Below are positions 5,229 to 40,108 of a DNA stretch of 64,000 nucleotides, piece after piece (the first letter of the stretch is position 1; each line of letters starts with the position of its first letter). Location of the stretch: assembly GCA_964016885.1 (NCBI GenBank), contig OZ024741.1:365490001-365554000 (forward strand), in the 5' to 3' direction. The position numbers were made by a program, and so were the translations under genes. Below the pieces are notes generated by a model. That model made no database searches and was not told the DNA's origin. It worked only from the letters and a program-made list of their open reading frames with translations. The DNA comes from Eledone cirrhosa (Eukaryota).

Positions 5229-5340
<112 letters not shown>

Positions 5341-5369
5341 ATCAAAAGATGGTTAAAGGAGTTCCATGT

Positions 5370-5438
5370 ATTTTATTATGCGCATTTCAAAAACAAACAT
5401 CATCATGCAATAATATTTGTGTTTTCATCAGATAAAAC
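5370..5438 (-). ncRNA. Type I hammerhead ribozyme, family A
   Basis: Reverse complement of 7191-7259. Confidence 0.85.
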
Positions 5439-7190
5439 AGGAGAACATGATATGAAGGCTAAAAAACACTTGTGGATAGTGCAGTTTTAAATCAACATAT
5501 GAAAAGTGGTTTTAGATTGATGTGTGATATTGGGAAAAATATTTTATTTAGAGGGGGGGGGCTGGAAAGGATGAAAAAGGGAAGGAGATGAGAGGGAGAG
5601 ATGAGTGATAGAGAGAAAGAGATAGTTTTTATAACTGAGAGGAGATATATTGTTTTACATAGAGAGGTTAAAAACCGTTGGAAGATAATGTATAAATTAA
5701 AAATAAAAAAAAATTTTGAAAATTAACGAAGGGAGGATATGTGCGAGGAAAAAATATTTTATTTAGGGAGGGGGGGGAAGGATGAAAAAAGGAGGAGATG
5801 ATAGTGAAGGTGGAGAGGGAGAGATGGGTGATAGAGAGAAAGAGATAGTTTTTATAACTGAGAAAAAGATGTATAGTTTTACATAGAGAGGTTGGGAACC
5901 GGTGGAAGATAATGTATAAATTAAAGGAATTTGAAAATTAACGAAGGGAATTTATGTATGAAGATAGAGAGAAAAAATAATAATTGTGGATGAATATTCT
6001 AACGTCAAAAAAAGAAATGTATGTTGATAAGATATTGTGGCAATTTAAAAATTAACGAAGAGAAAAATTATTAAGGTTTGTGTGTAGAAGGATTTGAGAA
6101 AAATAATGTGGAGTTAAAGTTTGTATATTGAAGGAATTGATAATATATGCGAATAAAGAGTTAATATGTATTAATAATGAGTTCGTTGATGGGGAGAAAA
6201 AAATAATAAATTAAAGATGAAATTGAGATTAAAAAGATTTATGATAGAGAGAAAAAATAATAATGATTGCGGATGAATATTCTAACGTCAAAACAACAAA
6301 TGTATATGTTATGATTTTACAAGGTGGAGATAGAATGAGGGTAATGAGTAAACAAGTATTATAGAGTGTATAATGCCCTTTAAAGTAAGGTAGATGGGTA
6401 TATTTTAAAGAGGTGTATGTATATGTGCCTTTGAGAAAAGATTCTAAATTGATAAAGAATTGAAGATTCTAAAGATTCTAAATTGATAAAGAATTGAATA
6501 TACAAACTTTAACTCCACATTATTTTTCTCAAATCCTTCTACACACAAACCTTAATAATTTTTCTCTTCGTTAATTTTTAAATTGCCACAATATCTTATC
6601 AACATACATTTCTTTTTTTAACGTTAGAATATTCATCCACAATTATTATTTTTTCTCTCTATCTTCATACATAAATTCCCTTCGTTAATTTTCAAATTCC
6701 TTTAATTTATACATTATCTTCCAACGGTTCCCAACTTCTCTATGTAAAACTATATATCTTTTTCTCAGTTATAAAAACTATCTCTTTCTCTCTATCACCC
6801 ATCTCTCCCTCTCCACCTTCACTCTCATCTCCTCCCCCTTTTTTCATCCTTTCCACCCCCCCTCCCTAAATAAAATATTTTTTCCTCGCACATATCCTCC
6901 CTTCGTTAATTTTCAAAATTTTTTTTAATTTTTAATTTATACATTATCTTCCAACGGTTTTCAACCTCTCTATGCAAAACAATATTTCTCCTCTCAGTTA
7001 TAAAATCTATCTCTTTCTCTCTATCACCCATCTCTCCCTCTCATCTCCTTCCCTTTTTCATCCTTTCCACCCCCCCCTCCCCCTCTCTAAATAAAATATT
7101 TTTCCCAATATCACACATCAATCTAAAACCACTTTTCATATGTTGATTTAAAACTGCACTATCCACAAGTGTTTTTTAGCCTGTTCTCCT

Positions 7191-7259
7191 GTTTTATCTG
7201 ATGAAAACACAAATATTATTGCATGATGATGTTTGTTTTTGAAATGCGCATAATAAAAT
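7191..7259 (+). ncRNA. Type I hammerhead ribozyme, family A
   Basis: GTTTTAT-CTGATGA-[stem II aaac.caaatattatt/gatgatgtttg.tttt]-GAAA-TGCGCA-TA-ATAAAAT. Stem I ttttat/ataaaa; palindromic stem III ATGCGCAT; predicted AUA site after 7252. Confidence 0.85.
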
Positions 7260-7381
7260 ACATGGAACTCCTTTAACCATCTTTTGATCTTATATTATGT
7301 ATACTCCAGTCCTACAAACTGTAGAGTGCTTCTTATCCGATATCTGCATTGCTTTATTGTACTACAATAAAACTCACCTCC

Positions 7382-7437
<56 letters not shown>

Positions 7438-7438
7438 A

Positions 7439-7496
<58 letters not shown>

Positions 7497-7662
7497 AATT
7501 AGTATATCTAGTAACATATATATACACAGATGCATACTTATGTTAGCAAATATATAGGTTTTGTCTTAGTAACTATGTGGTTCAATGCATGGGGTTGCAG
7601 AACAATAATATGAGAGACGTAAAATAAGAAAATTATAAAATTAACTTACTTACTTAAATTTC

Positions 7663-7744
7663 ACTCCCAACTAATTAGTTTCTGAAAGGGATTAAACGTA
7701 CTATCCGAAGAACGCACTGAGAAGCCTTTCGTCATCAGGGAAGT
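7663..7744 (-). ncRNA. Type I hammerhead ribozyme, family B
   Basis: Near-identical reverse complement of 8068-8149. Confidence 0.8.
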
Positions 7745-8067
7745 CTATTCTCAGCTAAGTTACTAGATATACTATGTTACTAGATATACTAATTCTTTAT
7801 AATTATCTCCAAAATTATTTGTCGAGCAAAAATGGCCAAGACTGCTGCTATAGTAGCAGTGCGGCTGCTGTCTTACAAACAAACCACTATCCACTGATTG
7901 ACCTCGATGTCACGTGATTGATTCTTTTGAATTTGCCACCGACGCAGTAGGCAGTGATTTTATCAATGGCTTGGAATTAGTCCTCGCTTTGCTTTTTCCA
8001 TCCACTGAATTATTTTTGTATAAATTCCCTGTGTCCACGTATTGCCTGGAAACTTAGCTGAGAATAG

Positions 8068-8149
8068 ACTTCCCTGATGACGAAAGGCTTCTCCGTGCGT
8101 TCTTCGGATAGTACGTTTAATCCCTTTCAGAAACTAATTAGTTGGGAGT
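8068..8149 (+). ncRNA. Type I hammerhead ribozyme, family B
   Basis: ACTTCC-CTGATGA-c-GAAAGG...CCTTTC-a-GAAA-CTAATTAG-TT-GGGAGT. Palindromic stem III; predicted GUU site after 8143. Confidence 0.8.
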
Positions 8150-8216
8150 GAAATTTAAGTAAGTAAGTTAATTTTATAATTTTCTTATTTTACGTCTCTC
8201 ATATATATATATATAT

Positions 8217-8522
8217 GTAGATAAATCTACCAAAATATACGGTAGTGTCCAATCCGTATGAAGAACTCAATGTAATCCAAATATCATGAAAAGAGAAGAT
8301 GCATTCAAAATTTTCGATGAAAATCATAGGAAAACAGAGTCAAGATAAATTAATAAAAACAAAGAACAAGTTGCTTATATTAAAATATTCATCATTTTAC
8401 GATCGTTTCAAGGATATATATGTGTGTTGGTATGTATATCATATAGATCTATGTAAAAATATTACAAACTATCAGAGGAAATATACATACCTTCACATAT
8501 ATATGCTGTCTTCAGAAATGAT
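8217..8522 (-). mobile_element. 3' terminal fragment of a PLE related to family E (family E')
   Basis: Colinear with 40109-40452 and ends at the same tgtagataaatctacc terminus. Confidence 0.8.
8391..8522 (-). ncRNA. Type I hammerhead with ~100-nt stem II, family E'
   Basis: Minus strand: ATCATTT-CTGAAGA-[atatatatgtg..ggtatgtatat / atatacatacc..cacatatatat]-GAAA-CGATCG-TA-AAATGAT; GUA site. Confidence 0.75.
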
Positions 8523-8582
8523 ATATATATATAAATGAAAAATGGCGAGCTGTGTTTTTGCATATAGAATATATATAAACAC

Positions 8583-8835
8583 GAGGTATTAGAAATAGAA
8601 GCCGTCATCAGTGGTCTATTAGCCATCATAGGCATTTCTTCGCATTACAGACCATATATCTCAAGCTAGGGTGATACAATAACTAAAATAAGTTATTGGG
8701 ATAAAACGAGTTGGGTGGAGAGAGAGTAAACAAACACGAATGGTGAGGCAAGGTAAAGAGCCTGAGGTATATGGTCTGAAATGCGAAGAAAAACCTATGA
8801 TGACTAGTAGACCACTGATGACAGATAGTCCTAGC

Positions 8836-8840
<5 letters not shown>
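8583..8840. mobile_element. Short inverted-repeat element carrying a conserved CTGATGA-adjacent stem motif (family G)
   Basis: 8597-8668 is an imperfect inverse of 8759-8840; the motif is homologous to 21464-21525 and 22172-22232. Confidence 0.55.
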
Positions 8841-8912
<72 letters not shown>

Positions 8913-8936
8913 ACAGAATAGAGGTGTAACACACGA

Positions 8937-9274
8937 GTAAAAGGAAAAGAAAATGCTGACAAATTGTTCCCAGTGAAAAATAGTTTAATTAGGAATAAGT
9001 AAAAATTAGTAATAGTATTGGTTAGTATTCAGTTTTGGTTTTAAGTTTTACCCGTTGCGCATTTCTAATGGTTTTCAAAAATAATTTTGAGATAGAGCGC
9101 AAACATCACGGGCGTTCTATCTCAAAATTATTTTTGAAAAGCATTAGAAATGCGCAACCGATGAAACTTAAAACCAAAACTGAATACTAACCAATATTAT
9201 TACTAATTTTTACTTATTCCTAATGAAACTATTTTTCACTGGGAACAATTTGTCAGCATTTTCTTTTCCTTTTA

Positions 9275-9276
<2 letters not shown>
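8937..9276. repeat. Near-perfect fold-back, ~165-bp arms with an ~11-nt loop
   Basis: 8937-9100 is the reverse complement of ~9112-9276 with a few mismatches; next to (TA)n tracts. Confidence 0.9.
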
Positions 9277-9333
<57 letters not shown>

Positions 9334-9361
9334 CATTGCCTGGAGACTTAACTGAGAATGG

Positions 9362-9443
9362 ACTCCCTGATGACGCAATGAATTCTCGACAGTTGGATTA
9401 CGTAACTGTCTTTATCCCATTGCAGAAACTAATTAGTTGGAGT
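9362..9443 (+). ncRNA. Type I hammerhead ribozyme, family C
   Basis: ACTCC-CTGATGA-c-GCAATG..GACAGTT..AACTGTC..CATTGC-a-GAAA-CTAATTAG-TT-GGAGT; predicted site after 9438. Confidence 0.85.
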
Positions 9444-9922
9444 GAAAATTTAAGTAAGTAAAAAATTTAAAAAAAAAATTTTTTTTAAAGAATATTTTCT
9501 TATTTTACGTCTTTTATATTATTGTTCTGCATTCTCCTGCATTGAACCACCTAGGTACTATGACATAACCTGTGTATTTGCTAGCATGGGCGTGCATCTG
9601 TGCGCTTATGTTAGTTGATATATTAAATTATCTATATTTATCTCCAAATCACTGATTTGTCGAGCAAACTTGCCAAAACCACTTCTAAAAAAACTTTTTT
9701 TGGGGGGTGTTAGTAGGCGTCAGTCATCTTACCATCCCATTCCTTCTAACTAGCCTCTGTGTCACGTGATTGATTCTTTAGAATCGGCCATTTGACTTGA
9801 AGCAGTGAGAATTTCGGTACATAGAATCCAGTCCTCGCAAGCTGTTCGATCTACCGAATTATTATTATTTTTATATGAGCCGCCAGTGTCCGCGCATTGC
9901 CTGGAGACTTAACTGAGAATAG

Positions 9923-10004
9923 ACTCCCTGATGACGCAATGAATTCTCGACAGTTGGATTACGTAACTGTCTTTATCCCATTGCAGAAACTAATTAGTTG
10001 GAGT
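9923..10004 (+). ncRNA. Type I hammerhead ribozyme, family C (second copy)
   Basis: Same sequence as 9362-9443; predicted site after 9999. Confidence 0.85.
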
Positions 10005-10191
10005 GAAAATTTAAGTAAGTAAAAAATTAAAAAAAAAAATTTTTTTTAAAGAATATTTTCTTATTTTACGTCTTTTATATTATTGTTCTGCATTCTCCTG
10101 CATTGAACCACCTAGGTGCTATGACATAACCTGTGTATTTGCTAGCATGGGCGTGCATCTGTGCGCTTATGTTAGTTGATATATTAAATTA

Positions 10192-10225
<34 letters not shown>

Positions 10226-10799: not shown

Positions 10800-10944
10800 T
10801 TATGATTATTACTATATATATATATATATATATAGTAATAATCATAAATTTGAAGACTAAAATCCAAAGAGGGCTCGATAAGGATAAAAATATATCAAAT
10901 ATATAAGAACCGTAGAGCAAATATTTATTAAAATAACAGATTAA

Positions 10945-10995
10945 AGTTTAAGCAAAGAATCGCTGCTTTCACCCTTAACGGGATCTTCTGAAACT
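10945..10995 (-). ncRNA. Hammerhead-like motif with CAGAAGA core, family D
   Basis: Minus strand: AGTTT-CAGAAGA-t-CCC gttaa GGG-t-GAAA-GCA gcgattctt TGC-TT-AAACT. All three stems form. Confidence 0.65.
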
Positions 10996-11940
10996 AACAA
11001 AGTCAATCTGTAAACGCAGAAGTGGATATTTCAAAAAACGTTGCAACCGGAGGAAGACAGAAAGACGATACTTTGGTTCATGGAAACGTTCGCTGGCAAA
11101 GAACGGGAAAAAACGAATATAATACGTCATTAATAGGAGCGGTGAAAAACAATTACGAGCAAAGACAGAACCACTTTTATGGTATAAAAGAGGTCGTAGA
11201 CTAATGTTCTCTTAGGTGGTTCATAGAGACGTTCTCTGGCAATGAACGAAAAAAAACGAAGATAATACGTCATATGTGGGGCGTGGAGAATAATAGCACG
11301 CAAAGACAAAACCACGTAAATGGTATAGCAGAAGTCGTAGTCTAAAATACTAACAAGGAGACCGAATGAATCTCCGCTTCAGAGTTAATAACAAAGTAAA
11401 TAAATACAATACAGAAGTAATAGAAATAAATAAATACATACACGCAAACAAATACGTACATACACAAGCATACGCAAAACACTTACCATAGGTATACAAA
11501 ACCACGCACATATAAATATGTGAGTGTGTGTATGCGTGTATACAAATAAATAAATAATTATATAAACGCATATAAATAAATAAATACGTATATAACAAGC
11601 GCACACACATACCTACATGTAAATACACGAATGTTCGGAGACGTAAGTCAACCAAAACATGAAGTACACATATACACACACCCTACATATGTACGAAGCT
11701 GCATACTCGCACAGACACAAAAACCCCGAATAAACATAGCCAAACCATATGTACCAGAATATATAAAAATATACGCCATAACATAAACAATCAAATATAC
11801 GTACGAGAAGGTATGCGTACCTTCACAAAACATACGGGTAATATATACTTACCTATGCAAATAAGTAATGGTATAAACAAAACATATACTTAGCTCCCAC
11901 ATCAAGACGTAAAATATCCACGTATAGATCGTACTATCTG

Positions 11941-14061
11941 TTAGGGTATAACGTGGGGCTGTAATACAGGAAAGTTTTGTGCAATTTATGTTTACAAGCC
12001 TAAATGCCTCAGATTTTTTGTTTAAGATGTGGTCTGTGGCGTAGAGTATTTCCAGGGCCTCAGCGGCGCATATGTCACATGGTCTTTTATTTCCGTTATA
12101 TGATCTAGCCCTAGCTAGCATCTCCCAGTGTAACTTATATTGGGTGTGGTTGTCTTTTAGACACCAGATATAAGCTGAAAGTGACGTCATATTCCTTCTT
12201 AGAGGGTAACGAAAAGAATGGGTATGCATGTAAAGACGCTGCTTGAATCTATTGGCGGTTAACCCTCTGTAGGCCCTACGGGACGTGGGTGTTACAACCT
12301 TACATTTGTAGACAAAGTTACTAGAGAGGCATTTCCCGGATAGGGGGGCAATCAACCCGATTCCTACAATTACAGTTAGTACTAACTACAGGGTTGCACG
12401 TGTTCCTACGGCTAGGTAGTTTAGCTAAATTTGAAGCTGTAATATTATGTGCGAAGTTAGGAGTCGTAGAGTAAGAAATGTTAATAGTACTTCTATTAAA
12501 AATGTTACTATATTTATGTGTAGGGGGAAAATGTTTCGTAATAAGGGAAAGAAAGATCTTAGCTAATGTTGTGGCCACCTCCATATTATATGGTGGGTTA
12601 TACCAACAAATGCGACGGGATCTATTTCTTCTAGGTCTATTTTATTACTCTGTATATGCTACCTTATCAACAAATCCACTTCGAGCAAGAGCTTCATTGT
12701 AATAAGTGGAATGGTCGTTGAAAATACGCTCGTTAGAGGAAAGACGGAAAGCCTCAACGAAACGTTTCTTACCAGGTTCTTGGTTATGCTGGCAGGATGG
12801 TTGGAATGCTTACTTATGTAATTAAGCGTATCATTCGGCTTTCTAAACGGGTAATACAACCCATTCAATAAATTGAGGCTAACGTCGAGGTAATTAACGA
12901 CCGAGAGATTGGCTTCAACCTGTATAGAGAGGTTGAAGCCTTTAAAGAAGGCTGTGAGTTCTTTTCTGAACCTGTCTCAAGCAAGAGGTCCGCACTTAGT
13001 CATGGTCAAAAGACCATCGTCACGGTACAAACCACTGCCCGCGTTGAGGAATTCGTCCTTGATAGAGAAAAGAAGGAAAAGGCCGATAAGATCAGTAACC
13101 TCCGCAGAATCACTGGCGCCCATACTCACGTCGAATGGGGTACTATTGGATTTTTTAATCCAAATAGAGTCGTCGAAATTAATCACCGACTTTCGGGCAT
13201 TGAGGATGACATCAACGCGAAATCCTTAACCACTGTGAGTGTTTTAGCGAAATTGATAGCTCTAAGGAGAAGTGGTAAAGTGATGGAGGAGTAGTAACTG
13301 TTGATGTCGAATTGGATAAAACGGTAATGTTCCTTGTTACATATGCCGTTCAACCAATCAATCACGGCGAAAGAATTGTTCCACAGTGCAAGAGGGGCCA
13401 AACTTCTAATTTCAGGTATAATTCTATCAAGAATCGTTTTACTAAGTCTACCTAAATCGGACTTCGTAGGGTTAATAAGCCGAATAGAGGGGTTGTTCGG
13501 AAAATTGGATTTGTGATCCTTCAGGGTATAGTGGGGAGAAATAGGGTCCAGAGGTTCGGTCAGGTCCAGGATGTTGAGATCAGATGTGATTTTAAACCCA
13601 GCATCGTTGATTTCATTGATGACGCACCGATTAGTTTTAGGGTAATCCTTAGTTACAGCATTATGTAGTAGTTGATGGTAAGTACTGCGCTCCACTTGAT
13701 ATAGGTTGCCAGTTTTGTCGGAATGGACGTGCAAGGCATTAGAATCCTTAATAGAACGAATTCTATTCTTCAGGTCTTGCTGGAAGGAATTACTCCTATT
13801 CCGAAATTTGATACTCCGAATGAGTTCCAAGACATCATTTTCGAAGGGTAGCAATGCTGGGTTACACGGGGGGTTATTATAGGTTTTAAATCCAAATTTA
13901 TCCTGTTTGTTGTCTGCTTTTCGCTGATTATCGAAATAAAAGTCACGCCAACGCAACCTTTTAATGAACGCGTCTGTTTTCTGTATCAGGAGTTTTAGGT
14001 ATGTTTTTCTGCTTGGTACGGGTATGTTCTTTGTAGAAATATTCAGATGTTGTTTCTGCAT
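11941..14061 (-). pseudogene. PLE RT/GIY-YIG polyprotein, frameshifted (~700 codons)
   Basis: Motifs in order across several frames: STKNIPVPS, SDKTGNLY, LKDHK, IRLINPTKS, QFDINSYYSSI, FDVSMGASDSAE, GLYRDDGL, SNHP, WYNPP, CNCRNRVDCP.SGKC, FVYKC..AY.GLT, CDIC..E, LNKKSE. Confidence 0.92.
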
Positions 14062-14201
14062 GATGAATATAAGTCAGTAGAGTGCCAAATAGTAATAATA
14101 ATAAATTTGAAGACTAAAATCCAAAGAGGGCTCGATAAGGATGAATATATATCAAATATATAAGAACCGTAGAGCAAATATTTATTAAAATAACAGATTA
14201 A

Positions 14202-14252
14202 AGTTTAAGCAAAGAATCGCTGCTTTCACCCTTAACGGGATCTTCTGAAACT
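14202..14252 (-). ncRNA. Hammerhead-like motif with CAGAAGA core, family D
   Basis: Same sequence as 10945-10995, ~140 nt upstream of the ORF start. Confidence 0.65.
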
Positions 14253-15557
14253 AACAAAGTCAATCTGTAAACGCAGAAGTGGATATTTCAAAAAACGTTG
14301 CAACCGGAGGAAGACAGAAAGACGATACTTTGGTTCGTGGAAACGTTCGCTGGCAAAGAACGGGAAAAAACGAATATAATACGTCATTAATAGGAGCGGT
14401 GAAAAACAATTACGCGCAAAGACAGAACCACTTTTATGGTATAAAAGAGGTCGTAGACTAATGTTCCCTTAGGTGGTTCATAGAGACGTTCTCTGGCAAT
14501 GAACGAAAAAAACGAAGATAATACGTCATATGTGGAACGTGGAGAACAATAGCACGCAAAGACGAAACCACGTAAATGGTATAGCAGAAGTCGTAGACTA
14601 AAATTCGAACTAGGAGACCGAATGAATCTCCGGTTCAGAGTTAAGAACAAAGTAAATAAATACAATACAGAAGTAATAGAAATAAATAAATACATACACG
14701 CAAACAAATACGTACATACACAAGCATACGCAAAACACTTACCATAGGTATACAAAACCACGCACATATAAATATGTGAGTGTGTGTATGCGAGTATACA
14801 AATAAATAAATAATTATATAAACGTATATAAATAAATAAATACGTATATAACAAGCGCACACACATACCTACATGTAAATACACGAATGTTCGGAGACGT
14901 AAGTCAACCAAAACATGAAGTACACATATACACACACACTACATACGTACGAACCTGCATACTCGCACAGACGCAAAACTCCCGAATACACATAGCCAAA
15001 CCATATGTACCAGAATATATAAAATTATACGCCATAACATAAACAATCAAATATATGTACGAGAAGGTATACGTACCTTCACAAAACATACGGGTAATAT
15101 ATACTTACCTATGCAAATAAGTAATGGTATAAACAAAACATATATTTAGCTACCACATCAAGACGTAAAATATCCACGTATAGATCGTACTATCTGTTAG
15201 GGTATAACGTGGGGCTGTAATACAGGAAAGTTTTGTGCAATTTATGTTTACAAGCTTAAATTGCCTCAGATTTTTTGTTTAAGATGTGGTCTGTGGCGTA
15301 GAGTATTTCCAGGGCCTCAGCGGCGCAGAGGTCACATGGTCTTTTATTTCCGTTATACGATCTAGCCCTAGCCAGTGTAACTTATATTGGGTGTGGCTGT
15401 CTTTTAGACTCCAGATATGAGCTGAAAGTGACGTCATATTCCTTCTTAGAGGGTAACGAAAAGAATGGGTATGCATGTAAAGACGCTGCTTGAATCTGTT
15501 GGCGGTTAACCCTATGTAGGCCCTACGGGACGTGGGTATTACAACCTTACATTTGTA

Positions 15558-16300
15558 AGAAACGTTTCGTTGAGGCTTTCCCGTATTTCCACCAACGAGC
15601 GTATTTTCAACGACCATTCCACAAGAAATAGATCCCGTCGCATTTGTTGGTATAACCCACCATATAATATGGAGGTGGCCACACCATTAGCTAAGATCTT
15701 TCTTTCCCTTATTACGAAGCATTTTCACCCTACACATAAATATAGTAACATTTTTAATAGAAATACTATTAAAATTTATTATTCTACGACTCCTAACCTT
15801 GCACATAACATCACAGCTTCAACTACCTAGCCGTAGGAACACATGCAACCCTGTAGTTAGTACTAACTGTAATTGTGGGAATCGGGTTGATTGCCTCTAT
15901 CCGGGAAATGCCTCTCTAGTAACTTTGTCTACAAATGTAAGGTTGTAACACCCACGTCCCGTAGGGCCTACATAGGGTTAACCGCCAATAGATTCAAGCA
16001 GCGTCTTTACATGCATACCCATTCTTTTCGTTACCCTCTAAGAAGGAATATGACGTCACTTTCAGTTTATATCTGGAGTCTAAAAGACAACCACACCCAA
16101 TATAAGTTACACTGGGAGATCCTAGCTAGGGCTAGATCGTATAACGGAAATAAAAGACCATGTGACCTCTGCGCCGCTGAGGCCCTGGAAATTCTCTACG
16201 CCACAGACCACATCTTAAACAAAAAATCTGAGGCAATTTAGGCTTGTAAACATAAATTGCACAAAACTTTCCTGTATTACAGCCCCACGTTATACCCTAA
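15558..16300 (+). pseudogene. Inverted PLE family D fragment (linker and GIY-YIG)
   Basis: ORFs 15570-15830 and 15891-16241 give ICWYNPP, SGKCLSSNFVYKC..AYIGLT..CDLCAAE. An internal deletion lies near 15622. Confidence 0.88.
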
Positions 16301-17242
16301 CGGATAGAACGATTTATACGTGGATATTTTACGTCTTGATGTGGGAGCTAAGTATATGTTTTGTTTATACCATTACTTATTTGCATAGGTAAGTATATAT
16401 TACCCGTATGTTTTGTGAAGGTACGTATACCTTCTCGTACGTATATTTGATTGTTTATGTTATGGCGTATAATTTTATATATTCTGGTACATATGGTTTG
16501 GCTATGTGTATACGGGAGTTTTGCGTCTGTGTGAGTATGCAGGTTCGTACGTATGTAGGGTGTGTGTATATGTGTACTTCATGTTTTGGTTGACTTACGT
16601 CTCCGAACATTCGTGTATTACATGTAGGTATGTCTGTGCGCTTGTTATATACGTATTTATTTATTTATATGCGTTTATATAATTATTTATTTATTTGTAT
16701 ACACGCATACACACACACACATATTTATATGTGCGTGGTTTTGTATACCTATGGTAAGTGTTTTGCGTATGCTTGTGTATGTACGTATTTGTCTGCGTGT
16801 ATGTATTTATTTATTTCTATTACTTCTGTATTGTATTTATTTACTTTGTTCTTAACTCTGTAGCGGAGATTCATTCGGTCTCCTTGTTAGAATTTTAGTC
16901 TACGACTTCTGCTATACCATTTACGTGGTTTTGTCTTTGCGTGCTATTGTTCTCCATGTTCTACATATGACGTATTATCTTCGTTTTTTTCGTTCATTGC
17001 CAGGAACGTCTCTATGAACCACCTAAGAGAACATTACTCTACGATTTCTTTTATACCATAAACGTGGTTTTGTCTTTGCGCGTAATTGTTTTTCACCGCT
17101 CCTATTAATGGCGTATTATATTCGTTTTTTCCCGTTCCTTGCCAGCAAACGTTTCCACGAACCAAAGTATCGTCTTCCTGTCTTCCTCCGGTTGCAACGT
17201 TTTTTGAAATATCCACTTCTGCGTTTACAAATTGACTTTGTT

Positions 17243-17293
17243 AGTTTCAGAAGATCCCGTTAAGGGTGAAAGCAGTGATTCTTTGATTAAAGT
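17243..17293 (+). ncRNA. Hammerhead-like motif, family D (mutated copy)
   Basis: Same CAGAAGA core; point changes weaken stems I and III. Confidence 0.55.
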
Positions 17294-17401
17294 TTAATCT
17301 GTTATTTTAATAAATAATTGCTCTACGGTTCTTATATATTTGATATATATTTATCCTTATCGGTGCCCTCTTTGGATTTTAGTCTTCAAATTTATTATTA
17401 T

Positions 17402-17439
<38 letters not shown>

Positions 17440-23891: not shown

Positions 23892-26460
23892 TGTTTCTTT
23901 TATTTGCCACCAGGGCATCAAAAGTGGGACAAGTACAATGGAGGGAGTTTACAAAACAAGGCGTCCTCAATAAGGAGGAGGCAATAACAATATATAAAAA
24001 TAAAATAAAATATAACAAAAAATAAAATTTATAACAAAGTCCTCAATAGAGAGGAGGCGCCTTGGGAGGTCGCACACACCCCCGAAAAAAAGTGTGCAAC
24101 CCTTTTCCTCGGGAGCACAGAGAAGAGGTGCTCCCTTGGTCTTTCATCTTCCTCACCTATAGTCTGATGTAGAGTGAAGGCCCATTCACACGGGCCATTC
24201 TCGCCACTTTCACCCATCTTTCATAAAACGGCTGGGGTGCAGCACCTCTCTCTCCATCCTGATCCTTCTTCCGAAATGATATCGGAAGAAACGGACCAGT
24301 TGTTGGCCAGAGAGAAAGGTGTCTGACCTCAGTACTTTCAGACGCGTCCACCATACAACCTCTTTCGCCATGGCTATTACGCACAGAAACACCGACTCTT
24401 CTTCGTTTTTGAAGAGGGGAGGCGGCTTGATCGTTACAATAGACTCGGTGGTCAACCGAAATTGTCCCACCCTTGACAGCAGTTGTTCGACATAGCACCA
24501 CAAATCGGCAATGCCCGAGCAGTGTACCAATGCGTGTGCAACGGTTTCCTCGTCGCACACGCATCTGGAACAGATCTTTTTCGAGGGGTCCCTACCCGGG
24601 CGCCCGTGTCTGTAGAGCCTTTCTCTAACGGGCAGAGCCCTTCTGTAGCATTGCCAGGCCAGGGACCTCTGGAAGTTATCCATGGGTCCCGGGCTGAATG
24701 TCCTACCGAACAGGTTGGCCAGTTCGTCTTCCTCCATGCCTAGGGCTTCTCCGAGGGCGTCGTCGCACCTGCTAACCACCAGCCCTCTATAGAATGACGA
24801 GGTGGATTCTCCACTGACAGCCGGGTCCGCCTGCCAGATAGCCGTGAGCGCCTGGGCACACTCGGTGTGCCAGGCGCCCAGTTTTCTTGGTCTTTGCTTG
24901 AACCAGGATTGCAGCTCGGTGAGTGAGATGAGTCTGGGAAAGGCTCGCCTCACAAACGGGGCCCACACCGGTTGACCGGAGAGGAATACCTGAAGGTGCC
25001 GTAGCCTTAATGCGTGTTTACGTATCATTAGCCACGGCATCCCCAGCCCTCCTTTCGAAGGGTGTTGACATGATGGATCTCCTCACCATAGGAGCCCGCT
25101 TCTTCCAAAGGAATTGGAAGAGTGCGCGCTCCATTTTGGCGAGCGTTTCCCTTGGGCAAAGCACAACGGTCAGGCGGTAGTAGATGACGGACGCTATATA
25201 AGTGTTCGCCACCTCCGCCCGACCTTTCAGGGACAGTTTGCACTCGGCCCACTTCTGGGTCAGTGCAAACACCCTGTTCGTTACCTCACCCCAGTTCTTC
25301 TCCACCTGGAGGTCTGGTCCGAACCAGACCCCGAGCAACTTCACCGGGCCCTCCGTCCAGCGCCCGACGACGCCATCGGAGGGCATCGATCTGCCCCTCC
25401 ACTTGCCGAGTTGCAGACCGATCGACTTGTCCCGGTTCAGCTTAGCCCATGTAAACCTTTCGTACTCCTCCAGTAAGGTGCCGATCGCCCCGATTTCCGA
25501 GGCCGTCGACACCATTACTGTTACGTCATCGGCGTAGGCTGACACCGCTTTCCGCAATCCCGGTTCCAACGGGATGCCCTGCAACAACTCCAATTTCCGC
25601 AGCAGTGGCTCTAGAGTCACTACATACAGAAGGGAGGAGAGAGGGCACCCCTGTCAGATGGACCGCGCGATTTCGAACGGCTCCGAGAGGTAGCCGTTCA
25701 CCTTGACCCTAGAGCAGATGAGGCTGCTGTGCATGGCATTGATCCAGCTCCTGAAAACGGGTCCGAAGCCTGCCGCCGCTAGCACCGCATCCGGGTAACC
25801 ATGGTCGACCCTATCGAATGCCTTAGATTGATCCAAGTTGATCAGGGCCCCACCAAAGCCGGGTTCGTTCCCAACCCTCTCTATGATGTATCGCATGAGG
25901 TGGAGGTTGTCGTGGATGGACCTGGACGGGATAGCACATGTCTGCGCATCTCCCACCAGGTTACCCACGACAAGCGCCAACCTCTTTGCTAGCACCTTGG
26001 CCAAAATCTGTAACTCTGTATTTAGCAGAGTTATGGGCCTGAAATTATTTATATTGTCCCCCTTGTTCTCGTCCTTCCTCACTAGCGTGACTACGCCCTT
26101 GGTCACAGCACAGGGAACTCTCCCGTCCTGTTGCCAGTTGCAGTACACCGCCTCGAGGAGATCGGGGAACAAGTCCGGCATAGTTATATATAGTTCGTAT
26201 GGAAGACCATCGAGACCCGGGGATTTGCGTTTGCCGCATTGGCTCAGCTCGTCCTCTATCTCAGCGGCTGAAATCGGCTCCTCGTAGGACTTCGCCTCCC
26301 TGTCCGAGAGACGCGGCAGGCCGTCGAGGTATGGACCGAAGTCCACATCCCGAACCGGCTCCACGCCCCTTCCGAACAATCCGGCAAAGTGCTTTTGAAA
26401 AGTCTCGCACATCTGCTTAGGTTCAAGGATCACCCGTCCATCCTGGTCTCGCAAAGACCG
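23892..26460 (-). mobile_element. 5'-truncated L1/Tx1-like LINE (ORF2 RT and CCHC finger, frameshifted) flanked by (GATA)n
   Basis: KSPGLDGLPYE, NFRPITLLN, DQSKAFDRVDH, QGCPLS, AYADDVT, KLLGVWFG, CSRCVCDEETVAHALVHC. Confidence 0.92.
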
Positions 26461-26532
<72 letters not shown>

Positions 26533-26533
26533 T
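26461..26533. repeat. (GATA)n microsatellite
   Basis: Visible directly in the sequence. Confidence 0.97.
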
Positions 26534-26639
26534 ATCTCGCTATGCCTATTTTTGGATTATTTTATCCATCATCAATGATGTTTCGTACGCAAAATGTATA
26601 TCAGCTATAGCTTATTTTATGCTCAGCACTGAGTGTATC

Positions 26640-28670: not shown

Positions 28671-29277
28671 AAATACAGATCAGAAAGTATAATTTTGTGT
28701 GTGTTTGTGACATTGGTAAGTTAGTGTTAATGTTGTATCAAACATGTCCACACATGTGAATACCTGTGTGGAATAATGGTCAAGGTGTTAGTCTCACGAT
28801 CGTCGGGTGGTTTCCGCGCGTTGCATAGTGTCCTAGTGTATGACACGTCATTTCGCCTTGCTTGAGTCTACCAAGCTGGCATGAAAGAAACTGTTTGGAA
28901 TCTTATCAGATGGACTGCACACGTAGCTCATGAGGCCAGCCTAGTTACACAAAAGTCATACTGTAACTCCCTGACAACAACGCTAAAGCTTCGCGGTTCA
29001 TGTGTATGCACAGACACTTGCAAGTTAATTTATTCAGTTCAGCATCTATTATATTCCTCAAGAGCATGGAATCAACCGTGGTTCGATATGTATATATATA
29101 TATATGTGTGTGTGTCTATATATGTGTGTATGTATATATATATATATATAATGTAGGAGGTGAGTTTTATTGTAGTACAATAAAGCAATGCAGATATCGG
29201 ATAAGAAGCACTCTACAGTTTGTAGGACTGGAGTATGCATAATATAAGATCAAAAGATGGTTAAAGGAGTTCCATGT

Positions 29278-29346
29278 ATTTTATTATGCGCATTTCAAAA
29301 ACAAACATCATCATGCAATAATATTTGTGTTTTCATCAGATAAAAC
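29278..29346 (-). ncRNA. Type I hammerhead ribozyme, family A
   Basis: Reverse complement of 7191-7259. Confidence 0.85.
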
Positions 29347-30022
29347 AGGAGAACATGATATGAAGGCTAAAAAACACTTGTGGATAGTGCAATTTTAAAT
29401 CTACATATGAAAAGTGGTTTTAGATTGATGTGTGATATTGGGAAAAATATTTTATTTAGAGAGGGGGGGTGGAAAGGATGAAAAAGGGGGAGGAGATGAG
29501 AGGGAGAGATGGGTGATAGAGAGAAAGAGATAGCTTTTATAACTGAGAGGAGATATACTGTCCCACACAGAGAGGTTGAAAACCGTTGGAAGATAATGTA
29601 TAAACCCCCAAAAATTTTTGAAAATCAACGAAAGGAGGATATGTGCGAGGAAAAAGTATTTTATTTAAGGAGGGGGGCTGGAAAGGATGAAAAAAAGGGG
29701 GAGGAGATGAGAGTGAAGGTGGAGAGGGAGAGATGGGCGATAGAGAGAAAGAGATAGTTTTTATAACTGAGAGAAAGATACATTGCCTTACACAGAGAGG
29801 TTGAGAAACCGTTGGAAGATAATGTATAAATTAAAGGAATTTGAAAATTAACGAAGGGAATTTATGTATGAAGATAGAGAGAAGAAATAATAATTGTGGA
29901 TGAATATTCTAACGTCAAAAAAAGGGTATGTTGTGGCAATTTCAAAATTAACGAAGAGAAAAATTATTAAGGTTTGTGTGTAGAAGGATTTGAGAAAAAT
30001 AATGTGAAGTTAAAGTTTGTAT

Positions 30023-32135
30023 TGTAGCGGTTGTCTCCCTTGTTTTGATTAGGATCTAGACGGGAAGTGGAACCCTTTCTGCAACTTCCGGTCAGAGCCC
30101 TATAAAACTAACAACTTTAAGCTTCCTTTCTCTCATTGCCTTTTCGGCACCTGTTCAAGAGCCTCACATTTGGCTCTGTTATTAATTTGGCCAACAGGCG
30201 CCTGGCCTTAGCCAGGCGTCCTCTGCCAGCCGCGTTTGCCTGGCAATCAAAACGGTAACTACTAACTTTGTGTCATTCTAACATCTATTCCTATTGACAT
30301 GTCAACTATAAAATCTACTGTTAATTAAATATTATACACCAAACCATGTATTCCTTGTTACATTCATACAATCCAGTAATCCCGCTATATTGGTAACCCT
30401 GACGTGATACGAACACGCAGCCGTTCATCGCTATAAGTGGTCACCCCCCAAAAAAAGAAAAAAATAGCACATCTGGTTTTGTGAGTAACATTACGAATAC
30501 ACAGCAAATTTAGCGACAAACTATGAAAATACTCAAGGACACGCACACACGCACATGTGGAATTCGCACAGACAGACTTTTTCTCTCACGCATCAATTAA
30601 CTGTCGCATTTCACCAATATATATATATGTTTCTCGTTTCTTACAACGAACACTTTCAAAACAAAAAAAAAACAAAACATTTCACGATATATATATATGT
30701 TTCTCGTTTCTTACAACGAACTCTTTCAAAACACAAAAAAAAAAGAAATTTGATATTCTTTAAAAAAACATTTCAACAGGAACATTTATTTTCGATGAAC
30801 CATTGCCTTTTTGTTCATCGTTTTCTTCATCGTTCAAGTTTTTTTTTTTTTCCCAAAGTTCACACCAATAATTATGCTGAGTGAAGCCTTTCTTTTTCAT
30901 CATTGTCACTTTCAAAATTGCACTATCATTTTCTCGCGCGTTAGAAATATTATTTTTTTCAACCTTGTATTGGCACGTGTAGGCAGCACAAATTCTCGAT
31001 TCACAGAGATGTCTCTACTCACAGACAGCCGCACGCCAGAGATATCATTTCTCACCAGGGATTCTTCAGCCTTAAGCTATATTCTTCTATTTGCCGGTTT
31101 ATAAATTTACAATGTAAATTTACCGTTGATAACCGCGCATTTATTAAGAATGCTTATTTCTCTGGTCGCTGGCCTCTTGACCCTTCCAGGTCAACGCATT
31201 CTCAACATCGACCATCAACTTCGGCTGCTATTTCTAGCACTTTGCGCAACTCATTTTTTCTAAAAAAAAATTTTGTTACTGTGAATTTAAACACCGAATA
31301 CGCTCACTCAGCGAGACAACAGCAGCAGCAACAGCAATATAACAGCAACAGCAATACATCAATACAGCTTCACGAAAGCCAGAGAATTCATTTTTGCAGC
31401 ACTCTTCCTGTGAGAAAATCCATTCGGAGGTTGGAAATTTCACGATATACCACAGAACAGAAACCACCTGCATTCATTCTCTGGAACACACTTTCTTTCC
31501 TGCTGTCATGTGATTGCACACCTGTGAACTATATTTTGAACTTTGAGCTCTTCTATTACTTTTACTTTATTACGTTGTATCTTTGGGTGATGGATAGATG
31601 GATGTCCAGTCGTTCTCTGGCCAAGAGCGGTTGGCTACCTTGATATCTATCATTGATTTTTTCCAAACATTCTTTTGTCGTAATTTTCATGCCTGTTACA
31701 ACATTCTCGCCAACTTGCTACATATTTTCATTTCGATTTTTATACACTAAAATTCTGGCGGGAGGTTATGTAGCGGTTGTCTCCCTTGTTTTGATTAGGA
31801 TCTAGACGGGAAGTGGAACCCTTTCTGCAACTTCCGGTCAGAGCCCTATAAAACTAACAACTTTAAGCTTCCTTTCTCTCATTGCCTTTTCGGCACCTGG
31901 TCAAGAGCCTCACATTTGGCTCTGCCATTAATTTGGCCAACAGGCGCCTGGCCTTAGCCAGGCGTCCTCTGCCAGCCGCGTTTGCCTGGCAATCAAAACG
32001 GTAACTACTAACTTTGTTTCATTCTAACATCTATTCCTATTGACATGTCAACTATAAAATCTACTGTTAATTAAATATTATACACCAAACCATGTATTCC
32101 TTGTTACATTCATACAATCCAGTACTCTCGCTATA
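30023..32135 (+). mobile_element. Non-autonomous LTR retrotransposon (Ty3/Gypsy-like), 367-bp LTRs, 4-bp TSD GTAT
   Basis: LTRs 30023-30389 and 31769-32135 (TGTAGCG...CGCTATA) differ at few sites. TSD GTAT at 30019-30022 and 32136-32139, with the empty site visible in the opposite arm (~32975-32992). PPT ggcgggagg ~31757-31765. No long internal ORF. Confidence 0.92.
30391..30422 (+). other. Primer binding site complementary to the tRNA-Trp 3' end (extended)
   Basis: TGGTAACCCTGACGTGATACGAACACGCAGCC against the recalled metazoan tRNA-Trp complement TGGTGACCCCGACGTGATTCGAACACGCAGCC (29/32). Confidence 0.8.
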
Positions 32136-33658
32136 GTATATTGGAGGAATTGATAATATATGCGAATAGAGTTAATATGTATTAAGAATGAGTTCGTTGA
32201 TGGGGAGAAAAAAAAAAATTAAGGATGAAATTGAGATTAAAAAGATTTATGAGAGAGAGAAAAAAATAATGATTGCGGATAAATATTCTAACGTCAAAAA
32301 AAAAAAAACAGATGTATATGTTATGAATGATTTTACAAGGTGAAGATAGAGTGAGGGTAATGAGTAAACAAGTATTATAGAGTGTATAAAGCCCTTTAAA
32401 GTATGGTAGGAAGATGGGTATATTTTAAAGAGGTGTATGTATATGTGCCTTTGAGAAAAGATTCTAAATTGATAAAGAATTGAATATTAACTGTATACTT
32501 TGTGAAAAGTTGTATGGAATTTATGCAGGCAGATAGAAAACAAATCTGTGCGTCTATTTATTATAGAATCTAGATTTGTTTTCTATCTGCCTGCATAAAT
32601 TCCATAGAACTTTTCACAAAGTATACAGTTAATATTCAATTCTTTATCAATTTAGAATCTTTTCTCAAAGGCACATATACATACACCTCTTTAAAATATA
32701 CCCATCTTCCTACCATACTTTAAAGGGCTTTATACACTCTATAATACTTGTTTACTCATTACCCTCACTCTATCTTCACCTTGTAAAATCATTCATAACA
32801 TATACATCTGTTTTTTTTTGACGTTAGAATATTTATCCGCAATCATTATTTTTTTCTCTCTCTCTCATAAATCTTTTTAATCTTAATTTCATCGTTAATT
32901 AATTTTTTTTTTTCTCCCCATCAACGAACTCATTCTTAATACATATTAACTCTATTCGCATATATTATCAATTCCTCCAATATACAAACTTTAACTTCAC
33001 ATTATTTTTCTCAAATCCTTCTACATACAAACCTTAATAATTTTTCTCTTCGTTAATTTTGAAATTGCCACAACATACCCTTTTTTTGACGTTAGAATAT
33101 TCATCCACAATTATTATTTCTTCTCTCTATCTTCATACATAAATTCCCTTCGTTAATTTTCAAATTCCTTTAATTTATACATTATCTTCCAACGGTTTCT
33201 CAACCTCTCTGTGTAAGGCAATGTATCTTTCTCTCAGTTATAAAAACTATCTCTTTCTCTCTATCGCCCATCTCTCCCTCTCCACCTTCACTCTCATCTC
33301 CTCCCCCTTTTTTTCATCCTTTCCAGCCCCCCTCCTTAAATAAAATACTTTTTCCTCGCACATATCCTCCTTTCGTTGATTTTCAAAACTTTTTTGGGAT
33401 TTATACATTATCTTCCAACGGTTTTCAACCTCTCTGTGTGGGACAGTATATCTCCTCTCAGTTATAAAAGCTATCTCTTTCTCTCTATCACCCATCTCTC
33501 CCTCTCATCTCCTCCCCCTTTTTCATCCTTTCCACCCACCCCTCTCTAAATAAAATATTTTTCCCAATATCACACATCAATCTAAAACCACTTTTCATAT
33601 GTAGATTTAAAACTGCACTATCCACAAGTGTTTTTTAGCCTTCATATCATGTTCTCCT

Positions 33659-33727
33659 GTTTTATCTGATGAAAACACAAATATTATTGCATGATGATGT
33701 TTGTTTTTGAAATGCGCATAATAAAAT
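33659..33727 (+). ncRNA. Type I hammerhead ribozyme, family A
   Basis: Same sequence as 7191-7259. Confidence 0.85.
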
Positions 33728-35370: not shown

Positions 35371-35427
<57 letters not shown>

Positions 35428-35469
35428 TATATAATATAAGATCAAAAGATGGTTAAAGGAGTTCCATGT

Positions 35470-35538
35470 ATTTTATTATGCGCATTTCAAAAACAAACAT
35501 CATCATGCAATAATATTTGTGTTTTCATCAGATAAAAC
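35470..35538 (-). ncRNA. Type I hammerhead ribozyme, family A
   Basis: Reverse complement of 7191-7259. Confidence 0.85.
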
Positions 35539-36554
35539 AGGAGAACATGATATGAAGGCTAAAAAACACTTGTGGATAGTGCAGTTTTAAATCAACATAT
35601 GAAAAGTGGTTTTAGATTGATGTGTGATATTGGGAAAAATATTTTATTTAGAGAGAGGGGTGGTGGAAAGGATGAAAAGGGAAGGAGATGAGAGGGAGAG
35701 ATGGGTGATAGAGAGAAAGAGATAGTTTTTTTATAACTGAGAGGAGATATATTTTTTACATAGAGAGGTTGAAAACCGTTGGAAGATAATGTATAAATTA
35801 AAAATTTTGAAAATTAACGAAGGGAGGATATGTGCGAGGAAAAAATATTTTATTTAGGGAGGGGGGGGGGGGAAGGATGAAAAAAAGGGGGAGGAGATGA
35901 GAGTGAAGGTGGAGAGGGAGAGATGGGTGATAGAGAGAAAGAGATAGTTTTTATAACTGAGAAAAAGATATATTGTTTTAACATAGAGAGGTTGGGAACC
36001 GTTGGAAGATAATGTATAAATTAAAGGAATTTGAAAATTAACGAAGGGAAATTATGTATGAAGATAGAGAGAAAAAAATAATAATTGTGGATGAATATTC
36101 TAACGTCAAAAAAGAAATGTATGTATTGTGGCAATTTCAAAATTAACGAAGAGAAAAATTATTAAGGTTTGTGTGGAGAAGGATTTGAGAAAAATAATGT
36201 GAAGTTAAAGTTTGTATATTGATTGAATTGATAATATATGCGAATAAAGAGTTAATATGTATTAATAATGAGTTCGTTGATGGGGAGAAAAAAAAAATAA
36301 TAATAAATTAAGGATGAAATTGAGATTAAAAAGATTTATGATAGAGAGAAAAAATAATAATGATTGCGGATGAATATTCTAACGTCAAAACAAATGTTAT
36401 GATTTTACAAGGAGAAGATAGAATGAGGGTAATGAGTAAACAAGTATTATAGAGTGTATAATGCCCTTTAAAGTAAGGTAGATGGGTATATTTTAAAGAG
36501 GTGTATGTATATGTGCCTTTGAGAAAAGATTCTAAATTGATAAAGAATTGAATA

Positions 36555-37835
36555 TTAACTGTATACTTTGTGAAAAGTTCTATGGAATTTATGCAGGCAG
36601 ATAGAAAACAAATCTGTGCGTCTATTTATTATAGAATCTAGGTTAGAGATAATGGTAAATTTTTCATTTAGGCAGAGATTACAGATTTTAGATAGAGAGC
36701 TGTTCAAGTATGAGGATGCAGAAGAAATCTTCTTCCAAAAGATGGTATATTTAATGTTTTTGTCTTTTAAGGACCATATGAGTTCTGAGAGAGCAGTGTT
36801 AGTTCTTTTAAGTTTGTATTTGAAAGATGAATGATGATTATAGAGACGAGCTTTAAAAGAGGTGGAAGTGGAGCCAAAATAGGTGAAGGAATTGGTGCTA
36901 GTTATAATTTTACATTCATAAATTAAGTTTTTATCGAGACAATGGTTGTTGAGAGGACATTTATTTTTAATGTCGCAGTTGCAATTAGAGAGATTATTAA
37001 TGAGTGATCTAGTGTTATCTATAGAAGGATTGGAGAAGTTGTTTGCGATAGGAATAATAGAATAATAGGATAATAGTTTCTTGATTTAGAGTTGGATTAT
37101 GAACATTTAGCGAAGTTGTGTTTGACGTTGTATTTGGGTTTACAGAAGTTAGCCTAGGGTTTACAATGACGTCGGGAGTACTATTACTGTTATTATGAAA
37201 TTCAATATTGGAAGGAAGAGATTTAGTATTTAGTATTTTATTGTTGTGTTTAGAGATGATGTTGGAAATATTGGAGGATGTAGAATACGAAAATTTGATG
37301 GTGTGTTTGTTAAATATTTTACTATAGATATGTGAGGGAGGGAAGCATTTATTTAAGGCACTAAAAAATAATTTAGGAATATTGTTATTAATAGAGATGG
37401 AGAAAGGAGCATTATACCAGATTATGTTTTTGTATCTAGGTCTTTTATTAAAATTATTGGAATGGTCATGATTAATTATTCTACTGTAAGTTTTTCTAGA
37501 ATTTGTTTCTTTATTATATTTGATTTTATCTGGATAGCCGGCTTTAGAAAGTGCGTTATTATAGTTATTGGCGTTAGCATCAAAGATGTTTTTATTAGAA
37601 GATATGTTAGATATTCTATTTTCAATATTATTAACTATAGCATTCTTGATATTGGTAGGATGGTTAGATTTAAAGTTAACATAATTAAGGTTCTCATTGT
37701 TTTTATGGTAAGGGTAATATAGGCCAGTGTCAAGATTAAGAGATACATCCAAGAAATTAGCTAGTTTGATACTATTATCAAATTCAATTTTTAGGTTATG
37801 TTGGTTAAAGAGATTACGTATATTGTTCTTAATAA
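36555..37835 (-). pseudogene. PLE RT C-terminus, linker and GIY-YIG, frameshifted
   Basis: [83 protein letters not shown]. Confidence 0.9.
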
Positions 37836-37845
37836 TATTATATAA

Positions 37846-37891
<46 letters not shown>

Positions 37892-37929
37892 GTATATATA
37901 TATATACGTATATATATATATATATATAC

Positions 37930-37971
<42 letters not shown>

Positions 37972-38010
37972 GTATATATATATATTTATATATATATATG
38001 TATATATATA

Positions 38011-38042
<32 letters not shown>

Positions 38043-38796: not shown

Positions 38797-40108
<1,312 letters not shown>

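What the first reader, a model, noticed from the sequence alone, without database searches (positions are those of the whole stretch)
7494..8202. Sister non-autonomous family B shows compensatory changes relative to family C
Seen: joining the inverted and direct pieces rebuilds a ~550-bp monomer colinear with family C but clearly diverged. The hammerhead core and ACTAATTAGT are invariant while stems change in pairs: stem II GAAAGG/CCTTTC versus GCAATG/CATTGC; stem I ACTTCC/GGGAGT versus ACTCC/GGAGT. A third relative lies at 39721-39826. Inference: the ORF-less unit is an old, diversified lineage under selection for ribozyme structure, and its inverted 5' piece indicates PLE-type integration.
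Basis: partly seen in the sequence, partly recalled or inferred. Interest (0 to 1): 0.7.

Follow-up and report, generated by a model that had tools for sequence, protein, structure and literature searches.

The report
Penelope-inserted retrozyme with variant hammerhead
This is one copy of a non-coding jumping repeat, present thousands of times in this animal genome, whose predicted self-cutting RNA motif keeps its base pairs through paired mutations and has an unusual core, and whose mirror-image insertions suggest that a Penelope-type enzyme likely copies one RNA circle from two fixed start points.

Summary
Observation confirmed, with corrections. B is a 521-bp (not ~550) ORF-less monomer, contiguous and tandem at other loci and 71% identical to C (561 bp). 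B and C are not sisters: they sit far apart among at least 8 subfamilies (516-590 bp; 8,677 intact-core ribozyme copies). The paired changes hold up. Stem II position 2 takes all four Watson-Crick pairs. The type I hammerhead has an extra C and an extra A flanking G10.1-C11.1 (227 of 228 copies); Rfam misses it. Insertions end in (TA)n at two fixed sites about 120 nt apart. All 65 classifiable inverted insertions use one of each site, as does an ORF-bearing Hydra-like Penelope family in the window. Both arms derive from one subfamily (17 of 17). Verdict: a non-LTR retrozyme, a known class, with a variant ribozyme, likely copied by a Penelope enzyme from a circular or multimeric RNA. Cleavage, expression, age and the partner element are not shown. 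The scan noted the two-end pattern before, in other retrozyme families of this genome.

The parts
7494..7761 (-). Inverted arm of subfamily B: 5'-truncated, crosses the ribozyme and ends at the long (L) end, ~175 nt after the predicted cut, in (TA)n
7663..7752 (-). Type I hammerhead copy 1 (pseudoknot strand 7752-7748, core 7738-7732, extra C 7731, stem II 7730-7725/7689-7684, extra A 7683, predicted cut 7669/7668)
7494..7612 (-). ~118-nt tail between the S and L ends, with two conserved hairpins; the long one shows weak covariation
7762..7772 (.). Head-to-head junction with a short duplication (GTTACTAGATATAC at 7759-7772 and 7776-7789) and GTT microhomology
   Evidence: sequence
7767..8202 (+). 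Direct arm of subfamily B: 5'-truncated, crosses the ribozyme and ends at the short (S) end, ~57 nt after the predicted cut, in (TA)n
8060..8149 (+). Type I hammerhead copy 2: pseudoknot GAGAA 8060-8064 with TTCTC 8089-8093; stem I 8068-8073/8144-8149; CTGATGA 8074-8080; extra C 8081; stem II 8082-8087/8123-8128 with branch hairpin; extra A 8129; GAAA 8130-8133; palindromic stem III ACTAATTAGT; predicted GUU cut after 8143
7385..7493 (.). (TA)n target tract, left
   Evidence: sequence
8201..8215 (.). (TA)n target tract, right
   Evidence: sequence
9332..10195 (+). Subfamily C insertion, 1.5 monomers of 561 bp, two ribozymes (cores 9367, 9928), L end in (TA)n
39721..39820 (-). Tail-only fragment (L end) of a third subfamily; +-strand GTCTCTTATAT at ~39820-39830 may be a minimal S arm (inferred)
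5338..7381 (.). Neighbouring comparator: inverted pair of PLE family A 3' ends (S end at 5338 on -, L end at 7381 on +) with its own hammerhead
35426..38013 (-). Comparator: ORF-bearing (split ORF) copy of PLE family A, GIY-YIG with CxCx5C, hammerhead 1,024 nt after the stop; not the sequence partner of B

Best explanation
B is one subfamily of an abundant ORF-less 516-590-bp tandem repeat with a covarying type I hammerhead motif (a non-LTR retrozyme), whose RNA is predicted to self-cleave and likely circularise, and is likely inserted into (TA)n by a Penelope-like RT/GIY-YIG protein, probably of the Hydra clade. Shown: the repeat and its copy number, no ORF over 67 aa, covarying stems, the invariant extra C and A, (TA)n junctions, two fixed 3' ends ~120 nt apart flanking a hairpin-rich tail, one S and one L end in every classifiable inverted insertion, both arms from one subfamily, and arms that read through the predicted cut site. 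Inferred: a transcript of a tandem locus self-cleaves at GUU (as a monomer helped by the pseudoknot, or as a dimer through palindromic stem III) and is ligated to a circle. A PLE protein, possibly a dimer, binds the tail hairpins and nicks both strands of (TA)n. One target end primes at S and the other at L on the same RNA. Each RT runs backwards, often more than one lap, and the two cDNAs join head to head by microhomology. If only one end primes, a plain 5'-truncated copy results. Selection acts because only RNAs that fold and are packaged found new subfamilies; inserted copies then decay.
For: Copy number and diversity. Covariation on 25 ribozyme types: 90% of cells paired, 9 of 23 pairs with double changes, 52 double-change cells against 16.9 in shuffles (0/500), slid controls 36-56% paired. 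Stem II haplotypes seen at 2 or more loci are fully paired in 7 of 8, single-locus ones in 2 of 17 (Fisher p=5e-4). Ends: 176 of 192 3' ends are at S or L, and 173 of those abut TA/TC tracts. Of 77 head-to-head junctions, 65 were classifiable and all 65 are S+L (one is a duplicate); 40 of 40 in the position-ordered subsample. Non-inverted copies use both ends (20 S, 16 L, 4 other). The window's ORF-bearing PLE family shows the same pairing in 3 of 3 inverted pairs. Window PLE proteins carry RWR, DKT and CxCx5C, like the Hydra marks in PMC8557442 (RWK, DKT, CxCX5C). Arms are of the same ribozyme type in 17 of 17 (5.9% expected across loci), and 23 of 65 cannot be a DNA fold-back copy of the other arm. 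Units within an arm differ by 1.2% against 3.8% between loci, and locus-private variants are fixed in both arms at L132, L134, L137, L138 and L040. 5' truncations: 17 in +1..+20 after the predicted cut against 1 in -20..-1 (7.9 and 7.6 expected; 175 arms; p=1e-4, or 0.005 if two microhomology cases move). PMC11167929 shows internal RT initiation at two sites bounding the PLE tail and a predicted PLE dimer.
Against: No autonomous partner sharing this ribozyme or tail was found. Cleavage is untested. A mispair next to the core was a rejection criterion in PMC3088659, 8 of 9 Xenopus retrozyme constructs did not cleave in vitro, and PLE transposition in vitro did not need ribozyme cleavage. The minimum-energy fold of the isolated motif mispairs the core (CUGAU with AUUAG), z=0.5. 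Pseudoknot covariation rests on one lineage (2 rows) and one pair; tail covariation is weak by pair count (3 pairs, 349/500 shuffles reach it). Most locus-unique variants lie in one arm only (63 of 67 in B, 70 of 77 in C). Arrays L129 and L133 share variants among some units, with a 3-unit pattern in L129, which a single monomer circle does not explain. The truncation step could be an RT stall at stem I or AT-rich microhomology. Relatedness inflates covariation counts, and loci were mostly chosen by core patterns.
Confidence: 0.72

Rival explanations
1. Same element and PLE enzyme, but the template is an uncleaved multimeric read-through transcript. The ribozyme fold is kept as an inherited protein-binding or processing signal, and no circle is needed.
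For: About nine in ten passes read through the cut site. Ribozyme-dead PLE RNA is still inserted in vitro (PMC11167929). 3-unit variant pattern in L129.
Against: Locus-private variants are fixed in all units of both arms, in up to 7 units. Truncations step up just after the predicted cut. Related retrozymes accumulate as circles (PMC7229834).
Confidence: 0.17
2. One priming event only. The second arm arises by template switch or fold-back, and the S/L difference comes from endonuclease resolution within the element's own tail (the 'tail' model in PMC8557442).
For: This is the published reading of PLE tails; 42 of 65 loci are geometrically compatible with one arm being copied from the other.
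Against: 23 of 65 loci, including this one, have arms that are not contained in each other. Non-inverted copies end at either site. Both tail ends are RT start sites in vitro.
Confidence: 0.07
3. A DNA-level satellite or decayed pLTR, amplified by recombination and rearranged; the covariation reflects shared ancestry rather than selection.
For: Tandem arrays up to ~12 units with signs of later unit duplication; covariation controls do not correct for relatedness.
Against: Dispersed over many chromosomes with variable 5' and fixed 3' ends at (TA)n. One stem II position holds all four Watson-Crick pairs in multi-locus haplotypes, while single-locus ones are mostly broken.
Confidence: 0.04

Closest known systems
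Metazoan non-LTR retrozymes (Cervera and de la Pena 2020, PMC7229834, parts 2-4 of 6 read; Li, Clavereau and Pollet 2026, 10.64898/2026.07.22.740005, parts 1-3 of 5 read, supplements closed)
   Same: ORF-less tandem unit with one type I hammerhead per monomer, low GC, thousands of copies, proposed PLE mobilisation via circles. Axolotl HHR_Amex2 also has a mismatch (U-U) at the base of helix II.
   Different: Unit is longer than the 170-400 nt circles tested (but within the 51-972 bp range of Li et al.). Ribozyme has a branched stem II, a predicted pseudoknot and a C/A pair of extra bases. The parts read report no inverted arms or two-end rule.
PLE pseudo-LTR hammerheads and insertion structure (PMC4209133, PMC8557442, PMC3846280: passages; PMC11167929: part 2 of 4)
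   Same: Extra nucleotide between 9 and 10.1, conserved G10.1-C11.1, long helix II, palindromic helix III; 5' truncation, head-to-head inverted copy, optional tail at one end; (TA)n targeting as in the Hydra clade.
   Different: No ORF; tail ~120 nt rather than 30-40; additional invariant A between C11.1 and G12; strict S+L pairing quantified here.
Dolichopoda pDo500 hammerhead satellite (PMC2837043, passages)
   Different: Compared across species as a satellite; a 49-nt ribozyme; no insertion-end analysis in the passages seen.
Pseudoknotted hammerheads (PMC3088659, passages and section 8)
   Same: A pseudoknot between the stem I and stem II regions is common (~40% of representatives).
   Different: A mispair next to the core was a rejection criterion there; U10.1-U11.1 is noted, and an insertion before G12 is not mentioned in the text seen (figure not held).

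Membership tests
non-LTR retrozyme | Short tandem unit with a type I hammerhead in each monomer | tested here: met
non-LTR retrozyme | No coding capacity, no LTR structure | tested here: met
   longest ATG ORF 27-67 aa in four monomers; variable 5' ends, no LTR pair; PBS/PPT not searched
non-LTR retrozyme | Dispersed, high-copy, mobile | tested here: met
   8,677 core matches; dispersed loci on many chromosomes
non-LTR retrozyme | Transcribed, self-cleaving, circular RNA | not testable with these tools
   no run on record as RNA; only an indirect truncation step
type I hammerhead ribozyme | Core C3-A9, G12-A14, A15.1-U16.1, H17 and three stems | tested here: met
type I hammerhead ribozyme | Stem II pair directly adjoining G12 (canonical consensus) | tested here: not met
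   C and A flank the G-C pair in 227 of 228 copies. A pattern for a C directly before GAAAC found 9 copies, all A>C point mutants rather than forms lacking the extra base, and 13 copies have G there. No Rfam hammerhead match at E<=10. Filed as a variant.
PLE-mobilised element | 5' truncation, head-to-head inversion, optional tail, microsatellite target | tested here: met
PLE-mobilised element | Sequence shared with the pLTR of an autonomous PLE | tested here: inconclusive
   none found in a small sample of a very large PLE population (58,865 first-look EN candidates)
type-SGC permuted hammerhead | Non-circular permutation of core strands | tested here: not met
   strand order is ordinary type I; family known to me only from a search listing and scan notes

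The most novel reading that the evidence does not exclude
An undescribed, active hammerhead subtype (C/A-expanded base of stem II, branched stem II, pseudoknot to the 5' flank) defines a radiating retrozyme lineage, and its insertions record a PLE protein dimer priming both target strands at two fixed sites on a single self-cleaved RNA circle, with a minority of linear templates running off at the cut site.
Probability: 0.35. Interest if true: 0.72.

Novelty: new variant of a known kind. Interest (0 to 1): 0.52.

Why it matters
How animal retrozymes get back into genomes is proposed but untested, and the origin of PLE inverted arms and tails is open. This family gives a compact 520-nt substrate with named priming sites, tail hairpins and natural compensatory variants, so the mechanism can be tested directly. 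If the ribozyme cleaves, the hammerhead consensus must allow an extra base before G12, and Rfam-style searches are missing thousands of copies in one genome. The compensatory-change claim itself has precedent (pDo500), so the class is not new.

Tried and rejected
Rfam: no hammerhead family in the window's top 150 listed matches or in 7500-10190 at E<=10. No RNA holder listed. Laying three contig sets of unknown kind from one sample showed related variants only, and it is not used as evidence. No match in metagenome or viral contigs. Partner search: the 38 short-stem variants are nearly all deletion derivatives of this lineage; the pattern for other stem III sequences gave 1 unrelated hit. No PLE ORF runs directly into a monomer 5' end among the non-inverted runs listed. 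30 loci of another Hydra-like family have different 3' ends, and a hammerhead family sharing a CACGTG motif is not homologous. RNA-editing signature is inconclusive: fixed A>G vs T>C is 10 vs 2 in B but 14 vs 13 in C. L1-style twin priming, in which one arm stops at the other's priming site, is not supported (10 of 65 within 35 nt). The tree was spoiled by truncated rows and set aside; the tree (8 whole monomers) was used. One search's ruler spanned an inversion and was redone; its anchor spacings stand. Whole-monomer circular folds are only moderately stable (sense z -1.8 to -4.3, 25 shuffles). No target-site duplication can be read inside (TA)n. Literature searches found no description of this family or of the extra A. 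Non-open journals, figures and preprint supplements were not visible, so absence from print is not established.

Full report
Setting. The window lies in a 3.0-Gb animal assembly rich in (TA)n and Penelope-like elements (PLEs). Earlier scan notes call the organism a cephalopod; I did not test that.

Observation. The minus-strand arm 7761-7494 and the plus-strand arm ~7767-8202 both align colinearly with family C and together cover a 521-bp monomer. C is ~560 bp and forms arrays of up to about 12 units. The stems are as described; the stem I difference is a compensated indel. The 39721 piece is a ribozyme-less tail fragment, 99/100 identical to a third subfamily.

Size and shape of the lineage. 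A pattern for the intact core gives 8,677 matches against 0 for the reversed control; 1,832 are neither B nor C at stem II position 2. From 140 fetched loci (overlaps included), 68 distinct whole monomers fall into 8 types of 516-590 bp at 68-91% identity. On a tree of one monomer per type, with all 5 inner branches well supported, B and C lie far apart, and B's sister is the L112 type. The best-matching copies are 94-99% (B) and 93-99% (C) identical to the window copies. So several subfamilies spread recently; the age of the lineage cannot be read from these data.

Ribozyme. It is a type I hammerhead: stem I of 5-6 bp, CUGAUGA, an extra C, a 6-bp stem II opening into a bulge and a branch hairpin, an extra A, GAAA, palindromic stem III ACUAAUUAGU and a GUU triplet. 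On 25 types and 23 pairs, 90% of cells pair, 9 pairs have double changes, and 52 double-change cells compare with 16.9 in shuffles (0 of 500); slid controls pair 36-56%. That control ignores relatedness, so I also compared haplotypes in 228 copies from 108 loci. Stem II haplotypes seen at two or more loci are fully paired in 7 of 8, single-locus ones in 2 of 17 (p=5e-4). Position 2 takes A-U, C-G, U-A and G-C. This is the pattern expected if folding is selected in the RNA that founds subfamilies and inserted copies then decay. The bulge UUCUC can pair with GAGAA just 5' of stem I; one lineage has GGAAA/UUUCC, a single double change. The extra C is a known PLE trait (PMC4209133). The extra A before G12 is present in all 228 copies (C with A in 227); genome-wide only 9 copies have C and 13 have G there. 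I found no description of it, and Rfam gives no match. Caveats: most loci were found with core patterns, the minimum-energy fold mispairs the core, and cleavage is untested.

Insertion ends. Of 192 distinct 3' ends, 176 fall at one of two sites, S (~57 nt after the predicted cut in B) or L (~175 nt), and 173 of these abut TA or TC tracts. Of 77 head-to-head junctions, 65 had both ends classifiable and all 65 pair S with L; none is S/S or L/L; 12 were unclassifiable; one of the 65 is a duplicate. In the position-ordered subsample the count is 40 of 40, with 7 unclassifiable. Non-inverted copies use either end (20 S, 16 L, 4 other). The finding's locus is an L arm plus an S arm. The tail between the sites folds into two conserved hairpins; the long one has 3 double-change pairs, weak by pair count. 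The window's ORF-bearing PLE family A, with its own hammerhead 1,024 nt after the stop, shows the same pairing in 3 of 3 inverted pairs, one of them just left of this locus. Window PLE proteins carry RWR, DKT and CxCx5C, like the Hydra-clade marks, and that clade targets (TA)n. Inverted 5'-truncated copies and an optional tail are PLE hallmarks, and both tail ends are RT start sites in vitro.

Template. Both arms carry the same ribozyme type in 17 of 17 position-ordered loci, against 5.9% expected (35 of 35 overall). In 23 of 65 loci, this one included, neither arm is contained in the other, which excludes simple fold-back copying there. About half of the arms exceed one monomer (52 of 107), and most passes cross the cut site, so the template is circular or multimeric. 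In C arrays, units within an arm differ by 1.2% against 3.8% between loci, with locus-private variants fixed across both arms at five loci. Against a pure single-circle reading: most locus-unique variants are in one arm only, and two arrays share variants among some units. 5' truncations number 17 in the 20 nt after the predicted cut against 1 in the 20 nt before (175 arms, L002 dropped as wrongly split). That fits some cleaved linear templates, but also an RT stall at stem I or AT microhomology.

What is missing. No autonomous PLE sharing this tail was found in a small sample, and no RNA run was listed.

Comparison. The element meets the testable criteria of a non-LTR retrozyme. Compensatory changes in a ~500-bp hammerhead repeat have precedent in pDo500. 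It differs by the ribozyme variant and by the quantified two-end rule. I had noted that rule before seeing that other follow-ups report it for other retrozyme families in this genome; those notes are not independent support.

Verdict: real, a new variant of a known kind, interest 0.52.

Noticed in passing
window 5338-7381, 29156-33763, 35426-38013: PLE family A (Hydra-like motifs) has its own long-stem-II hammerhead with palindromic stem III ATGCGCAT and S/L ends about 90 nt apart.
   Followed up: partly
window 43675-45627 (-), 48514-51008 (+), 40113-41036, 47483-48406: Large inverted PLE (family 3, RT plus GIY-YIG); a 75%-identical fragment of its terminal repeat abuts the finding at 8220-8522; no canonical hammerhead found in its 3' UTR by my scan.
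   Followed up: partly
window 10835-17404: A further Hydra-like PLE family with an inverted arrangement and ~143-bp repeats in the 3' UTR; no canonical hammerhead found.
   Followed up: no
window 8018-8067 and homologues: A conserved alternative helix (TTATTTTTG with TGAGAATAG in the consensus fold) would sequester the pseudoknot strand, a possible off-switch for the ribozyme in the circle.
   Followed up: no
window 7909-7926: Strongly conserved TGTCACGTGATTGATTC motif in the monomer; a similar CACGTGATGATTC lies upstream of an unrelated hammerhead family (L112, L196). Possible shared promoter element.
   Followed up: partly
L015:2685, L070:186, L105:2565(-), L153: Other hammerhead families in this genome also show an unpaired A before GAAA with C or A after CUGAUGA, so the expanded base of stem II may be wider than this lineage.
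   Followed up: no
L129 (G000:C3:9135500-9144000): 12-unit C array with variants shared in a 3-unit pattern, suggesting later duplication or a multimeric template.
   Followed up: partly
window 8940-9280: Long inverted repeat resembling a MITE; related sequence flanks a C insertion at L107.
   Followed up: no
window 24180-26556 and 60562-63721: Two decayed non-LTR (LINE-like) RT/endonuclease elements, 69% alike.
   Followed up: no
L051-L153 flanks: Dozens of other hammerhead families crowd the same (TA)n tracts.
   Followed up: no
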